DNA from: Promethearchaeota archaeon Loki_b31 | Lineage (GTDB): Archaea; Asgardarchaeota; Lokiarchaeia; Sigyniarchaeales; SOKP01 | DNA: 64,000 nt | Direction of reading: 5' to 3' | Assembly: GCA_005222975.1 (NCBI GenBank) | Contig: NJBI01000009.1 | Location: 20,449-84,448, forward strand | Shown: positions 9,336 to 17,462 of the stretch, one piece after another | Layout of the letters: each line of letters begins with the position of its first letter | Position numbering within the stretch: the stretch's first letter is position 1 | Translations under genes and position numbers: made by a program | Notes under the pieces: model-generated | Database searches by the model: none | The model's input: only the letters and a program-made list of their open reading frames with translations | What the model was told of the DNA's origin: nothing

Positions 9336-10619
9336 CTAACAAGTCAAAGGGGGTCCCGTGGGGTTGTAATACCTCCACAATTCCAGCTTAACAAATTTTT
9401 TGTTTTCACATTTTTCTACTTTTCCAACGCTTTTGACATTTGCAAATTTTCTATTGTTATTAATGTAAGTGTTATGATTCTGAATGATGGTTGCAAATAA
9501 GTACCCGTTAATGTTTTTTAAGAATAGGTAAAAATCTTTGCTCTCGTTTAAGTTGTTAAATACCTGGGTTGCATTTCCTAAGACTACTTGGACTATGTCT
9601 GCGCCATCAACGAGCGAATCTTCGTAATCGCCTGACTCTCCATCTACACAGACAAAAGCAGGGTCGAGCACACCTAATTTAGACATTACTTTCTTTAACA
9701 AGCCGGCGGATTTTACTAAGCTCCTAAAACCTGAAACCCTAAATCGTTCTATAACTCTCCTCTCTACTTGCCTGTGGATCGTTGACATTTTGATCCCTAA
9801 CCTCTCGCAAAGAGCTGAAACGCTCACTCCATTGGGCTGAGAACAGAGCAGAGTGATGGAGGTTACGAGCCCCACGATAACATCGTCCTTCGTGTTTTTA
9901 ATTTTCTCGTAAAACCGAGACAAAATCTTGTATGACTGGTAATAAAAAGACATTCCCAAATCGAAGTGTTCGGTAATTTCTAAAATTCTTTGGATTATAT
10001 ATTCCTTGCGGTCTCTTTCTTTGTATTGCGGCCATAAACTTGCCATAGGAATCTTGAATTCGTTAAAATCCTTTTTGGAAATCTTCGAAACTTCTAACAA
10101 TTCTCTCTCGCTTATTGGTGTATTGTTGTGCTTATAATAAAAATAAATCACGCAAGGCACTAACATTTCAGTGCTCCGAAATTTCGTGCCTTTGCCTAAT
10201 TGAGCTCGAATCTTTTTAAAAACTTCCAAAATACTAACAGAGTCGCTCAGAGGAAAGTCAAGATTCGTTAAAATGCTTTTTATCGCTATTTTTGCCGAAA
10301 TTACAACGTTTTCCTCGCTCGTACGGTGAGAATCTAGCCTGTTTAAACCTTCGAGTCTAACCGAGTTTTTTGTTGCGCGCCTTTCGCTTTTGTACCCCAT
10401 CTGAGTTTTACCCAAGACGGCGTACTGAACGATATCGGCGTCGTACGGTCTGTGGTACTCTAATTTCTGAACTTCTAGAACGATACCACAGTCTCGGCAG
10501 GTGTAGCACTCGCGAGTTTCGACAATGTTGCAAGATCCGCAAACATCGCAGCGCTCCAAAGGGTTTTGAACGGAGTCTACTACTATCGAATCGATTTTTA
10601 CTAATTCGTGGGTTGCCAT
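9336..10619 (-). CDS. tfb: divergent transcription initiation factor IIB (TFB) paralog
   Basis: N-terminal CDVC...CRDCGIV Zn ribbon followed by two cyclin-like repeats and a C-terminal extension. Confidence 0.75.
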   Translation of the reverse strand: MATHELVKIDSIVVDSVQNPLERCDVCGSCNIVETRECYTCRDCGIVLEVQKLEYHRPYDADIVQYAVLGKTQMGYKSERRATKNSVRLEGLNRLDSHRTSEENVVISAKIAIKSILTNLDFPLSDSVSILEVFKKIRAQLGKGTKFRSTEMLVPCVIYFYYKHNNTPISERELLEVSKISKKDFNEFKIPMASLWPQYKERDRKEYIIQRILEITEHFDLGMSFYYQSYKILSRFYEKIKNTKDDVIVGLVTSITLLCSQPNGVSVSALCERLGIKMSTIHRQVERRVIERFRVSGFRSLVKSAGLLKKVMSKLGVLDPAFVCVDGESGDYEDSLVDGADIVQVVLGNATQVFNNLNESKDFYLFLKNINGYLFATIIQNHNTYINNNRKFANVKSVGKVEKCENKKFVKLELWRYYNPTGPPLTC

Positions 10620-11270
10620 TTTTTTATAATCACTAACTTTATTTTTAGTATTTTTTAATATTTTAATTCTGTAATTATTTTTAAACTAAGAAATGAAGAT
10701 CACCAGTATGCTATTTTAAGATTTGGAATTAGGTAAAAAATAGCGTAGAAGTTCAAAAAGAAAACGCATAAAAGCGTAAATAGTGAAAATTGATGCGGAA
10801 CCTAATAATTATTCTTCTAAAATTCATCAATCTATAGTGGAGGGTTTCATATTTAGAAGATAAAATTAACAATTTTTTGTGAAAAACACAATTTTGCAAT
10901 TCTAATCCCAACTAGTAAAATTATTTTTTCACAACCGTCGTAGTTACAGATTAAACTGGGAATATAAAAACAATCCTAATAGAAAAATTGATTTAAAATA
11001 ATCGTGGATATATGTCAAAATAGAATTATGACAATATTCTTAATAAGATAAAAACCCCTATAAAATCTATGCATAAATCAAATATTATTAGAATTGGGTT
11101 TTAAATTTTCGACTTTTCTTAAGTCTCCCGTTGAAATTACATGTTAATTATTATATTTGTCATAAATTTGTGAGAATTGTCCTATTTAAACCCCATTTTT
11201 TTATATAAAAGTCAAAGAAATTAAATAATTAAAATAAGACTATTAATTAAAGGAAATTCGAAAAAAAGAG

Positions 11271-11501
11271 TTGGAGCATGTGCAGAAAGACGATGATTTT
11301 CGGTTCGAAAAGTTAGATTGCCCGCGATGTAAGTCCAAGAAGATGATTAGGTTTGCGTGGGAGTCTGAAGCCGAACTCGAATGCACGGAGTGCGGAGAGC
11401 GATTTGACGAGAAAGACCTGTTAACTATCGACGACCCCTCGAACATTTTAACTGTCAAAGAAAAGTTAGCGTTCATTCGCGCTTTCAAAGAAAGCGATTA
11501 G
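11271..11501 (+). CDS. small Zn-ribbon protein
   Basis: CPRC...CTECG; TTG start, exact start uncertain. Confidence 0.65.
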   Translation: MEHVQKDDDFRFEKLDCPRCKSKKMIRFAWESEAELECTECGERFDEKDLLTIDDPSNILTVKEKLAFIRAFKESD

Positions 11502-11575
11502 TCCTGATTTATTGAAGTCTCCTGTTTGAAGAAATCTAATTTTTTCTTTATAAATTCTCGCCATATATTGATTTT

Positions 11576-12337
11576 ATGTTGGATCTATTCTTTTGGCTGT
11601 TCTTAATGCTATTAATTTCCATCGGAGTTCAAACTTGGTATAGACGCGTTCACACCCGGGGTCTCAAAGCGTTTCTGCACATTTTAGCCTTCGTTGGGGT
11701 TTTTGTTCACGAAGTGGCTCATTACGCCTTCAATGTTTTGTTTGGCGTCAAAACCGGCAAAGTAAAAGTTAAATACCGTAGCGAAGATAAAATGAGGGTC
11801 GCCCCTCACGGATCGGTCGGTTTACCTGAGTTCGAGCGAAACTCTTTTCTACAAACGTTTGTTGGCAGCGTAGCCCCGTTGTTTGTGTCGACTTTCCTTT
11901 TTCTTTTTTGCGTAGACATCATTTTCAACATACAAACTGATGCTTGGGTAAATGTAGTTGCCATCGTTTTCTGCGTATCGCTTTTTATCGGTTCCGAACC
12001 TTCGGGGCAAGACATGAAACTAATTGGCGAGACTTTTAAAAGAGACCCGAAATATTCCATTTACCAAATAGCTTTAGTCGTCGCGTCAGGGCTCATCGTG
12101 TGGTTTTTCGTAGACCTCTATTTTATCTACCTACCATTTGAAGTTCTATACTACATCGAATACTTCTTTTTCGTGATATTGGTCTATTTCGTTTTGAAAA
12201 CTGCCTTTTGGATTATCAGCAGTTGTTTCAGTGCTTTAAAAAGGCCTAAATTTCCAAGTATAAAGTTGTTGACTCGAAGGAGAAGGTTTAAAATGTTTGC
12301 TCCAAGAAAATTAAAAGAAAAAGAGGCGCAATGGTAA
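11576..12337 (+). CDS. M50-like intramembrane zinc metalloprotease
   Basis: HEVAH (HExxH) in a hydrophobic segment, AP motif, PSxQD third-ligand motif, multiple TM helices. Confidence 0.7.
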   Translation: MLDLFFWLFLMLLISIGVQTWYRRVHTRGLKAFLHILAFVGVFVHEVAHYAFNVLFGVKTGKVKVKYRSEDKMRVAPHGSVGLPEFERNSFLQTFVGSVAPLFVSTFLFLFCVDIIFNIQTDAWVNVVAIVFCVSLFIGSEPSGQDMKLIGETFKRDPKYSIYQIALVVASGLIVWFFVDLYFIYLPFEVLYYIEYFFFVILVYFVLKTAFWIISSCFSALKRPKFPSIKLLTRRRRFKMFAPRKLKEKEAQW

Positions 12338-12688
12338 GTGAAAGGTTTTTGTTTAGTGGCGGTCGTAGTCGCAATGTTGATGTTTTACCAAAAAGAACCC
12401 GTATACACCCTAGTTATTATCGGTGTAGGATTATTCTTCTATTTGTTCTACAAAGCGAGAAAGAGCGGAAATGGAAACGGTCTACTGGGGGCTTTTTTGA
12501 GCAGAAATCAGACTTCGCAAGATAGAAACTTCGACGATTTAATGGCATTAATAATGCTCCAACAACTACTCTCCAACAATCCTCAAGGCTCGAGCGCTTC
12601 AAGGGAAATATCCGAAGAGAGCCAGAAGCGTCGAGAAGAGATAGATAAAATTCAGCGAGAAGTTTTAGACTTGCTGGATAGCGATTAA
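12338..12688 (+). CDS. small membrane protein with C-terminal coiled coil
   Basis: GTG start abutting the previous stop; 2 TM helices. Confidence 0.65.
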   Translation: MKGFCLVAVVVAMLMFYQKEPVYTLVIIGVGLFFYLFYKARKSGNGNGLLGAFLSRNQTSQDRNFDDLMALIMLQQLLSNNPQGSSASREISEESQKRREEIDKIQREVLDLLDSD

Positions 12689-12717
12689 TCTTTTTATTTT
12701 TAGATGGTAATTAAATC

Positions 12718-13428
12718 ATGATCGAGCTCGAAGAATCGGCAATTATTTCTCATATTTTCGATTTAGCTAAGAAAAACGGTCTTATATCGATCGCCGGCAA
12801 ATCTGGTACGGGAAAAACCACCTTGGCTCTGCAATTTGTTAGCACACTTATGACGCTCGAAAAAACTTACCGAGACCAGTGCGTCTGGATACAAGCAAGC
12901 GAACAATTTCCTAAAAAAAGGTTAAGAACGCTTTTTGAAAGTTATTCTGATAAAGTCAATTACGTTCTGAAAAACATATTTATTGCCCCTGGAATAAAAC
13001 CTTTTTCTAACTACCAAGAGCAATCTTCTTACTTTAGAAAATTAAAGACCACGATTTTTCCAAGTAACGCTAAAATCATCGTTATCGACAATATTTCCCA
13101 TTTTTTGCGCTTTAACATCGCTTCTAACTCGGACTTTAAAAAACGGGGAGCTATCATGGACGAATTTTTCAGCGTACAGTTGTTTCCCTTAATAATGCGT
13201 TGCCTAAGAGAGAAAATAATTCTTATCTTGGTCCACGAGGTTTCTTTCGATCCTACCTCAGGCAAGACAAAACCTTTTTTTAGCAAGTTATACGATAGAA
13301 TTGACTCGATAAACATCAACCTCTCGAAGACTATGGGTTCGGGTCTAAAACAGATGGAAATTAGTTCGAAAGGTACCTCTACGAAGTTTGTCTACGAAAT
13401 TGCAGAATCTGGAATCGTAAATTTGTAA
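12718..13428 (+). CDS. RadB-like RecA-family ATPase
   Basis: GKSGTGKT Walker A, EQFPKKRL, IVIDNIS Walker B; lacks the N-terminal HhH domain. Confidence 0.8.
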   Translation: MIELEESAIISHIFDLAKKNGLISIAGKSGTGKTTLALQFVSTLMTLEKTYRDQCVWIQASEQFPKKRLRTLFESYSDKVNYVLKNIFIAPGIKPFSNYQEQSSYFRKLKTTIFPSNAKIIVIDNISHFLRFNIASNSDFKKRGAIMDEFFSVQLFPLIMRCLREKIILILVHEVSFDPTSGKTKPFFSKLYDRIDSININLSKTMGSGLKQMEISSKGTSTKFVYEIAESGIVNL

Positions 13429-13521
13429 TAAGGGTTAGCGTTTCCGATTATATAAAGGCAAAATTTTAATGTGCCAATTTTCCTTTTCCTTTAAATACAT
13501 TGGTGAAGAAGATAATTTACG

Positions 13522-13896
13522 ATGAATGCGCCAAATACCACGATCACGAACGAAATAAAATGTTCGATCTGTCGAGCCGACATAAAACACCGCAAGATGT
13601 ACCAAACAAGTTTGAAGCTCGGTGTGATTTGTAGGATGTGTAGGCAGCGCTTCTCAGACGAGGACATCGAGATGATTATAAACATGTTTTTCGCGTTTGG
13701 GGGATTCTTTGGGGCACTCGATAGGTCCAAATTCTCCATCGAGGATACTATCCTTGAATTTGCCAAAAATTTAGATAAAGAAAAGGTTGATTTTCATTCG
13801 CAAAACATCAGAATGTGGCATAAAGTATTAACTCACGGTATTACCCCAAAAGAGTTTTTAAAAGAATTATCAGCTTTTTCTGAGCAAGAACTGTGA
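13522..13896 (+). CDS. Zn-finger hypothetical protein
   Basis: CSIC...CRMC. Confidence 0.65.
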   Translation: MNAPNTTITNEIKCSICRADIKHRKMYQTSLKLGVICRMCRQRFSDEDIEMIINMFFAFGGFFGALDRSKFSIEDTILEFAKNLDKEKVDFHSQNIRMWHKVLTHGITPKEFLKELSAFSEQEL

Positions 13897-14354: not shown

Positions 14355-15640
14355 ATGGAGTTGATACAAAAAAACGTCAGATTTAGACCAAGTAAAAGGG
14401 ATCAACGCTCGACAGATAAAGCTCTTGCAAGAGAGCGGTATTAGCACGGCGGAAGCTTTAGCAATGTCCCCACATAACATCATATCGGAGATCGACGGGT
14501 TAGGCGATAAAACAGCCAAGAAACTGATTTGGAATGCGCGAAACGCGTTAGGTATGACTGAGTTCATAACTGCCGATGACATCGACGAGAACACCGAGTA
14601 CATTACCACTGGCTCTTCCGAATTAAACAGAATTTTAGGCGGCGGATTCCAAACCGGAAAACTTACCGAAGTGTACGGACCCTTTAAGTCCGGTAAAACC
14701 AATTTAGCTCATACGATCGCTGTAACCATCCAGCTTCCTAAAAAAAAAGGAGGTTTAGGTTCCACAGTAGCCTACATCGACACCGAAAATACTTTTGCTA
14801 AGGAAAAAATCAAAAGAATCGCCAAAAGGTTTGGACTGGATCCGAAGAAGGTTCTATCGCAAATTTATCACGCCAGGATTTATTCATCGGACCACCAATC
14901 GCAAATGATTCAAAAAGCTGAAACTTTATGCAAAACTCGAAATGTGCGTTTAATTGTAGTAGACAGTTTGATGGCGCTTTTGCGGGCCGAATATGTGGGT
15001 ATTGGCATGTTAGCTCGTCGACAAAGCTTTTTGAACAATATGATACACGCCCTTTCCCGGGTTGCAGAGACATACAATTGTGCTGTTCTTCTTACCAATC
15101 AAGTTTCGACTAAGATGATGGGAATGTTTTCAGGAAACGACGCAATTGGCGGAAATAGTGATAAGATATTTCATCAATCACTTCTAAATCGTAGCCCATG
15201 GCTGCCACTTTCGTGTGATGTTTAAAACTAAAGGTTTCTCTTCCAATAATTCGTTAAAGCGGAGAGCTATAATAGTGGATGCGCCAGACTTGCCACCTGA
15301 AGAAGCAGAGTTTTACATAACGAGTGTAGGAATTGCCGACACGGAAAAGGGAGAGGTTCCCGAAGCTCAAGGCTTAGATTTCGAAGTCGAGACATTGTAC
15401 GAAGAAGAGAGTAACGCCGAAGAGAGCGAAGTTTCCGATAATGGTAATGGTAACCATTCGCTCATTGATGTTAAAGGAATTGGAGCCGGCACCGCAAAGA
15501 ACTTAATAAAGGTCGGAGTAGGCTCTGTAAAAGAGTTGGTAAGTTCTGACCCCGAAAAAGTGGCTTCTAAAATTAACGGAGTCTCTTCTAAAATGGTCCT
15601 TGAATGGCAAACCAACGCAAAGACCTTGTTGAGCGTTTAA
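14355..15640 (+). CDS. radA: RadA/Rad51-family recombinase with C-terminal HhH domain; interrupted by a 31-nt putative intron (15157-15187) and a 1-nt frameshift in A7 (14368-14374)
   Basis: N-terminal HhH (DLDQVKGINARQIKLL), TTGSSELNRILGGG, GPFKSGKT, YIDTENTF, VVDS, LTNQV; removing 15157-15187 joins AIGGN to IVAHGCHFRVMF. Confidence 0.85.
15157..15187 (+). other. putative BHB-type mRNA intron in radA (31 nt)
   Basis: central helix GGAA/UUCU, bulges AUA and AAA, inner stem GUGAU/AUCAC; canonical cuts restore frame and motif. Confidence 0.8.
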
Positions 15641-17144: not shown

Positions 17145-17462
17145 TTAATAGCCGTACACCTCCAATTCTTTGAACTCCGAGATTAATTCCTTAACGATGG
17201 GACATCTGTCGTAATCGATGCAGGTAAAACACGGTTGGTCCGACCAGAAATACGCTTTTTGGTCCGGTCTTTCGACTATAAGTAGCGGGAACTTGCTTTT
17301 TGGACATTCCAGAGCCGAATTGTTTATTTTACCTCTTTTAGGTAGCGCGTACGAGAGTCCGCACACCTCGCACTTAACGAACCGTTTGTAATTGTTCGTC
17401 TTAAAAACGATTAGAGAGCACTCGCAACTAGGGCAAGCGCCTATTTCATCTAGTTTTTTCAA
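17145..17462 (-). CDS. multi-Zn-ribbon protein (topoisomerase C4-like)
   Basis: CPSC, CEVC, CPKS, CFTC...C clusters; operonic with the 16112 gene. Confidence 0.7.
   Translation of the reverse strand: MKKLDEIGACPSCECSLIVFKTNNYKRFVKCEVCGLSYALPKRGKINNSALECPKSKFPLLIVERPDQKAYFWSDQPCFTCIDYDRCPIVKELISEFKELEVYGY

What the first reader, a model, noticed from the sequence alone, without database searches (positions are those of the whole stretch)
15151..15198. 31-nt BHB/BHL intron in the radA-like gene at the conserved GG-x-H motif
The insert AGTGATAAGATATTTCATCAATCACTTCTAA separates AIGGN from IVAHGCHFRVMF, which matches the RadA/Rad51 consensus PIGGxILAH at the end of DNA-binding loop L2. Central helix GGAA(15151-54)/UUCU(15182-85), bulges AUA and AAA, inner stem GUGAU/AUCAC. 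The outer exon helix is relaxed (GGC/GCC across a larger loop). Unspliced mRNA would frameshift and stop at 15225. A recombinase whose expression depends on splicing could be post-transcriptionally gated (inference).
Basis: partly seen in the sequence, partly recalled or inferred. Interest (0 to 1): 0.88.

Follow-up and report, generated by a model that had tools for sequence, protein, structure and literature searches.

The report
tRNA-type mini-intron in Asgard radA paralogue
A 31-base hairpin shaped like an archaeal tRNA intron breaks a spare copy of the DNA-recombination gene radA in an Asgard archaeon and many relatives, so the mRNA very probably has to be cut and rejoined; the papers I could search report this inside a coding sequence for only one archaeal gene (cbf5), and no spliced RNA was seen here.

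Summary
Confirmed. Removing 15157-15187, the cut predicted by bulge-helix-bulge geometry, gives GGN|IVAHGCHF and a 411-aa protein matching intronless orthologues. The insert occurs at the same site as 42 distinct alleles in Promethearchaeota (Loki-type) genomes and metagenomes: 41 are 31 nt, and one is 30 nt with in-frame stops. In the 40 alleles aligned, the central helix pairs in all, and the intron stem is 94% paired with 57 double-sided changes. Exon 2 is under purifying selection only in the spliced frame. The genome encodes an (alpha-beta)2-type EndA with the relaxed-specificity loop, and RtcB. The motif is relaxed (HBh'/BHL), not a strict BHB. Regulatory gating is unsupported: the gene is an accessory third RadA, most relatives lack the intron, two intronless canonical radA genes exist, and same-shape inserts break three unrelated genes here. 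It looks like one of several tolerated mRNA micro-introns. The scan has noted this before on other DNA, including this radA paralogue. Side finding: the gene probably starts at a non-AUG codon (ACG 14374).

The parts
14357..14364 (+). Shine-Dalgarno-like GGAGTTGA, 9 nt before the proposed start
   Evidence: conserved at the same spacing in many orthologues
14374..14376 (+). probable non-AUG start codon ACG (protein begins [M]SDLDQVKG)
   Evidence: the aligned position holds ATG 19, ATT 20, ACG 8, ATA 6, TTG 2 times in 55 alleles; no in-frame ATG/GTG/TTG upstream of 14425 before the stop at 14362
14374..15156 (+). exon 1 of the RadA paralogue (261 codons: N-terminal HhH, Walker A GPFKSGKT, Walker B, L1, L2, ending ...AIGGN)
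   Evidence: Pfam Rad51 E 1.9e-60; NF003301 RadA
15142..15150 (+). 5' arm of the imperfect outer exon-exon helix (Ala-Ile-Gly codons), pairing with 15194-15202
   Evidence: 83% of cells paired, no double-sided change; largely set by the codons
15151..15154 (+). central helix H, exon strand GGAA
   Evidence: pairs with the intron strand in 40 of 40 alleles
15155..15157 (+). 5' bulge AU^A; predicted cut after 15156
   Evidence: BHB cut rule; restores the orthologue sequence
15157..15187 (+). 31-nt intron: stem 15158-62 with 15177-81, apical stem 15165-67 with 15173-75, 5-nt loop, then the H strand and two bulge nt
   Evidence: 42 alleles; intron stems 94.4% paired, 5 of 8 pairs with double-sided changes, 57 such cells against 20.3 in shuffles
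15182..15185 (+). central helix H, intron strand UUCU (UUCC in 8 alleles)
   Evidence: the only variation is G.U to G-C; this side was not fixed by the search pattern
15186..15193 (+). 3' bulge/loop AA^AUCGUA; predicted cut after 15187
15188..15640 (+). exon 2 (150 codons plus stop): IVAHGCHF, rest of the ATPase core, acidic linker, second HhH domain
   Evidence: pN/pS 0.004 for the first 10 codons and 0.037 for the core in the spliced frame; RadA model positions 288-315
15223..15225 (+). premature TAA reached by the unspliced frame (283-aa product without the L2 His and the last core strands)
15461..15607 (+). C-terminal helix-hairpin-helix domain, not present in the two canonical RadA proteins
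   Evidence: Pfam HHH_5 E 4.6e-9; canonical copies end at the core

Best explanation
15157-15187 is a tRNA-type micro-intron in the mRNA of an accessory RadA paralogue of a Promethearchaeia (Lokiarchaeia-type) Asgard archaeon. The pre-mRNA folds into a relaxed bulge-helix-bulge (HBh'/BHL) motif. The (alpha-beta)2 splicing endonuclease EndA cuts after the second base of each bulge, and RtcB joins the exons, giving a 411-aa protein. The intron was probably gained once near the base of the genus, at a site where the Ala-Ile-Gly and Ala-His-Gly codons already form a weak exon helix. It is kept foldable because the protein cannot be made without splicing, and it is lost precisely from time to time. 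It is one of several such introns in unrelated genes, most likely tolerated rather than a dedicated switch. SHOWN: insert, exact restoration of the frame, RNA covariation, selection on the spliced frame, presence of the enzyme genes. INFERRED: cleavage and ligation in vivo, single gain, routes of loss.
For: Exact empty-site orthologues. 42 distinct alleles at one position, 41 of them 31 nt long. Central helix 100% paired and intron stems 94% paired; covariation above all 500 shuffles and all slid controls, and recovered independently by RNAalifold for the intron stems. A 30-nt in-frame allele with TAA and TGA (L099) needs the same removal. The first ten codons of exon 2 show pN/pS 0.004 in the spliced frame, against pN 0.138 and pS 0.039 in the unspliced frame. 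EndA alpha has the catalytic Tyr/His/Lys motifs and a loop GSPLGISKPR that aligns with the A. pernix CSL carrying K44 and R46; that loop confers BHL cleavage (PMC3241643). A second, catalytically degenerate subunit and RtcB are present. Three other genes carry 30-32 nt inserts absent from most orthologues at the predicted sites; in the AAA+ gene the BHB cut gives the orthologues' Glu codon.
Against: The 4-bp central helix has low predicted probability in this allele and competes with an A15157-U15182 slip and with long-range folds. The outer helix is weak. The metagenome alleles were collected with a pattern that fixed the exon sides, and related alleles are not independent. The base of the genus tree is unresolved, so one gain with many losses cannot be separated from spread by recombination.
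Confidence: 0.9

Rival explanations
1. The intron is spliced but also serves as a regulatory gate, so that recombinase output depends on EndA activity, temperature or DNA damage. This is an addition to the best explanation, not an alternative to splicing.
For: The central helix is marginal, so splicing may be limiting. Length and apical-loop bases are conserved across alleles as far apart as 78% protein identity. The gene also has a weak non-AUG start. A negative-regulator role was proposed, untested, for the cbf5 intron (PMC2738675).
Against: Close relatives (93% identical protein, L013) lack the intron, and it changes state at least 5-7 times on the tree. Two intronless canonical radA genes exist. 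Unrelated metabolic genes carry same-shape inserts. Non-AUG starts occur in intronless alleles too.
Confidence: 0.15
2. Translational recoding (programmed frameshift or ribosome hop) bypasses the insert without RNA splicing.
For: A conserved hairpin inside a coding sequence with a one-base frame offset.
Against: A frameshift would put about ten variable residues into the conserved GG-x-x-x-AH motif. There is no take-off stop codon, and the codon before the landing site is TAA, not the matching AAT. The 30-nt allele is in frame with stops. The exon-intron central helix is invariant in a way recoding would not need.
Confidence: 0.03
3. The insert is a small palindromic DNA element that inactivates the gene or is excised at the DNA level in part of the population.
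For: Intronless and intron-bearing alleles are interleaved and recombine; the paralogue is dispensable in the genus.
Against: Both exons remain under purifying selection at synonymous divergence 0.56-0.70. The flanking AAAT repeats are 33 nt apart, not 31, so their recombination would not restore the frame. Variation keeps G.U or G-C pairs, as expected for RNA.
Confidence: 0.04
4. Split gene: a truncated RadA plus a separate protein started at GTG 15215 or ATG 15218; or an assembly error.
For: A 141-aa ORF starts at 15215 and overlaps the stop at 15225.
Against: The nine codons upstream of that start are conserved only in the spliced frame, and the GTG is not conserved. The insert is in many independent assemblies.
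Confidence: 0.03

Closest known systems
cbf5 pre-mRNA intron of Desulfurococcales and Sulfolobales (Yokobori et al. 2009, PMC2738675)
   Same: Short (16-44 nt there, 30-31 nt here), relaxed BHB boundary, inside a coding sequence at a conserved motif, host with a two-subunit EndA, patchy distribution with secondary loss.
   Different: Splicing was shown experimentally for cbf5 and not here. Here the host is an Asgard archaeon, the gene is a recombinase paralogue, and at least three more unrelated genes of the same genome carry such inserts.
BHB intron in the 5' UTR of Haloferax volcanii HVO_1309 mRNA (PMC7714728)
   Same: mRNA substrate of the tRNA-splicing endonuclease.
   Different: It lies in the untranslated region and does not break the reading frame; that paper names cbf5 as the only other known case.
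Non-canonical HBh'/BHL tRNA introns of Crenarchaeota and Asgard archaea (PMC3241643; bioRxiv 10.64898/2026.10.13.758758)
   Same: Same motif geometry and predicted enzyme; repeated gain in Asgard lineages.
   Different: Those are in tRNA genes; the Asgard preprint has no occurrence of 'mRNA' or 'cbf5'. No sequence match to this intron was found elsewhere in the genome apart from the second radA copy.
Archaeal RadA / Rad51 family; duplicated Asgard RadA clades (PMC12722695)
   Same: N-terminal HhH, ATPase core and L2 motif; passes the NF003301 cut-off.
   Different: 42-43% identical to the two canonical RadA of the genome, below the TIGR02236 cut-off, Walker A GPFKSGKT, extra acidic linker and C-terminal HhH. 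I did not place it in the clades of that paper.

Membership tests
EndA-spliced (BHB-type) archaeal intron | 4-bp central helix between the exon 5' side and the intron 3' end | tested here: met
   paired in 40 of 40 alleles; marginal stability in this allele
EndA-spliced (BHB-type) archaeal intron | 3-nt 5' bulge followed by an intron helix | tested here: met
   AUA/ACA bulge; stems 94% paired with compensatory changes
EndA-spliced (BHB-type) archaeal intron | cuts after the second base of each bulge restore the uninterrupted gene exactly | tested here: met
   boundary ambiguous by one base with the same product
strict hBHBh' motif | 3-nt 3' bulge closed directly by an exon-exon helix | tested here: not met
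   C15150 faces U15189; the exon helix resumes only after an 8-nt loop and is imperfect
relaxed HBh'/BHL motif | one bulge, central helix, and a loop at the second site, in a host with relaxed-specificity EndA | tested here: met
   PMC3241643
EndA-spliced (BHB-type) archaeal intron | host encodes splicing endonuclease and RNA ligase | tested here: met
   two PF01974 genes and one RtcB
EndA-spliced (BHB-type) archaeal intron | spliced product in vivo or cleavage in vitro | not testable with these tools
group I/II or homing-endonuclease intron | ribozyme core or intron-encoded ORF | tested here: not met
   31 nt only; no Rfam match in the window
canonical archaeal RadA (TIGR02236) | score above the equivalog cut-off | tested here: not met
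   intronless orthologue 284 bits against a cut-off of 361; the two other copies score 413-415
RadA/Rad51 family (NF003301, PF08423) | HhH plus RecA-fold ATPase with Walker A/B and L2 motif | tested here: met
   320 bits against a cut-off of 259; alignment to 1pzn

The most novel reading that the evidence does not exclude
A Loki-type Asgard lineage routinely splices many mRNAs with its tRNA endonuclease and ligase: a population of about 30-nt BHB-type introns that arise in conserved coding motifs and are precisely lost. This would be a prokaryotic, spliceosome-independent intron invasion of protein-coding genes in the closest relatives of eukaryotes. The radA-paralogue intron is an old and widely sampled member of it. 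A further step, that this intron and the non-AUG start jointly gate a specialised recombinase, is not excluded but has about 0.15 probability.
Probability: 0.8. Interest if true: 0.85.

Novelty: new variant of a known kind. Interest (0 to 1): 0.72.

Why it matters
In the papers I could search, endonuclease-type splicing inside an archaeal coding sequence is documented for cbf5 alone. A conserved, covarying intron in an Asgard recombinase paralogue, with further cases in unrelated genes, suggests that mRNA splicing by EndA and RtcB is routine in this lineage. That bears on how cells came to tolerate introns in protein genes before the spliceosome. It also means that gene callers split or truncate such genes in Asgard genomes. 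With 42 natural alleles and matched empty sites, this intron is a ready substrate set for an in vitro test and for studying intron gain and loss.

Tried and rejected
De novo genome scans for BHB-joined ORFs were not specific: controls with 2-nt bulges gave as many hits, so I give no genome-wide intron count and count only the three further sites checked against orthologues. Aragorn found only 14 tRNA genes, too few to test whether the intron came from a tRNA intron; a mismatch search found no related sequence except the second radA copy. Rfam: no match. The sigma-70 promoter scan is not suited to archaea and was uninformative. LAZR01002696.1 is not in the annotated collections. A single clade of intron-bearing alleles is rejected (AU p 2e-61). 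A start at ATG 14355 with slippage in the A7 run was rejected because many orthologues with the same Shine-Dalgarno spacing lack that ATG. Nine literature searches found no report of Asgard mRNA introns; most subscription journals are not covered.

Full report
Observation. The reading frame that carries the Rad51 domain (Pfam E 1.9e-60) runs through ...NDAIGGN into unrelated residues and stops at TAA 15223-25. A second frame resumes with IVAHGCHF. Of the 31-nt deletions tried, only those starting at 15157 or 15158, which give the same product, yield GGNIVAH. 15157-15187 is exactly what cutting after the second base of each bulge predicts.

Host and gene. Genome records holding the same intron are titled Promethearchaeota/Promethearchaeia, so the host is a Lokiarchaeia-type Asgard archaeon (inferred from relatives). 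The gene is not the main radA. Two intronless copies on contigs C50 and C13 pass the TIGR02236 cut-off, while this one is 42-43% identical to them and falls below it. It has Walker A GPFKSGKT, an acidic linker and a second HhH domain. With an intronless orthologue as query it was not found in 17 of 42 genus genomes, several of them 95-99% complete, so it appears to be accessory. A second, 5'-truncated copy on contig C63 is 89% identical in DNA and has the identical intron; with 6% contamination it may come from another strain.

Empty and filled sites. In the protein-based genus search, seven copies in five genomes carry the insert and twenty copies show the uninterrupted junction; one genome has both. 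The six sister-family copies used as outgroup are intronless. Pattern scans added 60 metagenome and 7 genome stretches. In all there are 42 distinct alleles at one position: 41 of 31 nt and one of 30 nt with in-frame TAA and TGA. This excludes an assembly error.

RNA structure. In 40 distinct alleles the central helix pairs in every case, varying only between G.U and G-C. The intron stems are 94.4% paired, with 57 cells changed on both sides against 20.3 in shuffles; slid controls pair at 27-46%. The search pattern fixed the exon sides but left all intron positions free, so the intron strand of the central helix and the stems are not products of the search. Related alleles are not independent, so the shuffle result is not a probability. 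The outer exon helix is 83% paired with no double-sided change and follows largely from the Ala-Ile-Gly and Ala-His-Gly codons; the pair C15150-G15194 holds in 12 of 40. The motif is therefore HBh'/BHL, not strict BHB. ViennaRNA gives the central helix only 0.07-0.29 probability locally and less in longer context, so the enzyme would have to capture a minor fold.

Selection. Against 19 near alleles, pN/pS is 0.075 in the end of exon 1, 0.037 in the core of exon 2 and 0.004 in the first ten codons after the intron. Read in the unspliced frame, the same bases give pN 0.138 and pS 0.039. These codons lie upstream of the GTG/ATG that could start a separate protein, so they are translated only if the insert is removed. 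This argues against a pseudogene and against a split gene.

Machinery. The genome has two EndA genes and one RtcB. The C13 subunit keeps the Tyr, His and Lys catalytic motifs and a loop that aligns with the Crenarchaea-specific loop of A. pernix EndA, including its Lys and Arg. The C79 subunit lacks the His. That loop is what lets EndA cut BHL and HBh' substrates (PMC3241643). An Asgard survey also reports two-subunit EndA in most genomes (bioRxiv 10.64898/2026.10.13.758758).

History. On an exon-only tree of 62 alleles the intron changes state seven times (at least five forced by well-supported branches), and one clade of intron-bearing alleles is rejected. Shared invariant bases at the hairpin apex suggest one origin. 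Intronless L013 is 97% identical to an intron-bearing allele around the junction, which fits precise loss. L109 is 97% identical to L057 upstream but 82% at the junction, which fits replacement by recombination. One gain near the base of the genus with repeated loss is the simplest account, but the base of the tree is unresolved.

Not an isolated case. Earlier notes of the scan pointed to similar inserts in this genome. My de novo scans were not specific, so I tested three candidates against orthologues. An lsrF-like aldolase (C99, 32 nt), an AAA+ ATPase (C45, 30 nt) and a thiolase-like gene (C58, 30 nt) each carry an insert that most orthologues lack at exactly the predicted site; the lsrF-like and thiolase-like inserts recur in one relative each. 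They share length and shape with the radA intron but, by inspection, not sequence.

Regulation. Nothing here shows gating. The intron is dispensable in close relatives, canonical radA genes are intronless, and metabolic genes carry the same kind of insert. The marginal helix and the probable ACG start leave room for low or conditional expression, which I put at about 0.15.

Comparison with what is known. It works like the cbf5 intron of Crenarchaeota (PMC2738675: 16-44 nt, relaxed motif, secondary loss) and meets every testable feature of a relaxed BHB-type intron. The defining experiment, a spliced product, could not be tested. A 2020 paper lists cbf5 and a Haloferax 5' UTR as the only mRNA cases (PMC7714728), and my searches found no report for Asgard mRNAs. 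The scan itself has noted the phenomenon in other genomes, including this paralogue; those notes are not independent support.

Verdict. A real, very probably spliced micro-intron (0.9); a new variant of a known kind; interest 0.72, carried by the multi-gene phenomenon rather than by a recombinase switch.

Noticed in passing
window 14357-14376: The gene has no normal start. ACG sits 9 nt after a Shine-Dalgarno-like GGAGTTGA; the aligned codon in 55 alleles is ATG 19, ATT 20, ACG 8, ATA 6, TTG 2, in intron-bearing and intronless alleles alike. This points to conserved non-AUG initiation.
   Followed up: partly
window 15360-15640: Acidic linker and a second HhH domain after the ATPase core, present also in intronless orthologues of the genus.
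   Followed up: partly
L002 (G000 contig C63, 17425-18579): Second, 5'-truncated copy, 89% identical in DNA but identical across the intron and about 20 nt on each side; recent gene conversion, local constraint, or a contaminating strain.
   Followed up: partly
L116 (C99:11802-11833, -), L117 (C45:8619-8648, +), L118 (C58:47823-47852, +): Three further 30-32 nt BHB-type inserts in lsrF-like, AAA+ and thiolase-like genes, absent at the exact site in most orthologues.
   Followed up: yes
L119 (C98:16601-16631) and L120 (C98:29253-29283): Two more candidates; the first restores an ABC-transporter Walker B motif (LDEPT|TG). Not compared with orthologues.
   Followed up: no
L099:245-319: A 30-nt allele of the radA intron that is in frame but holds TAA and TGA and ends in UUCC-AG.
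   Followed up: partly
alignment A1, intron apex (window 15166-15174): A15166, U15171 and U15174 are invariant in 40 alleles and the length is almost fixed at 31 nt; the reason for this constraint is unexplained.
   Followed up: no
window 9336-13896 and 17145-17462: The gene lies among a divergent TFB-like ORF (my reading of the sequence; no Pfam hit), a RadB-like ATPase (12718-13428) and Zn-ribbon proteins, suggesting an accessory DNA-processing cluster.
   Followed up: no
whole genome G000: Aragorn finds only 14 tRNA genes, several doubtful, in a genome rated 92% complete; many tRNAs may be hidden by non-canonical introns or unassembled.
   Followed up: no
L031, about position 2167-2185: A sister-family orthologue has about six extra in-frame residues upstream of the NQV motif; not examined.
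   Followed up: no
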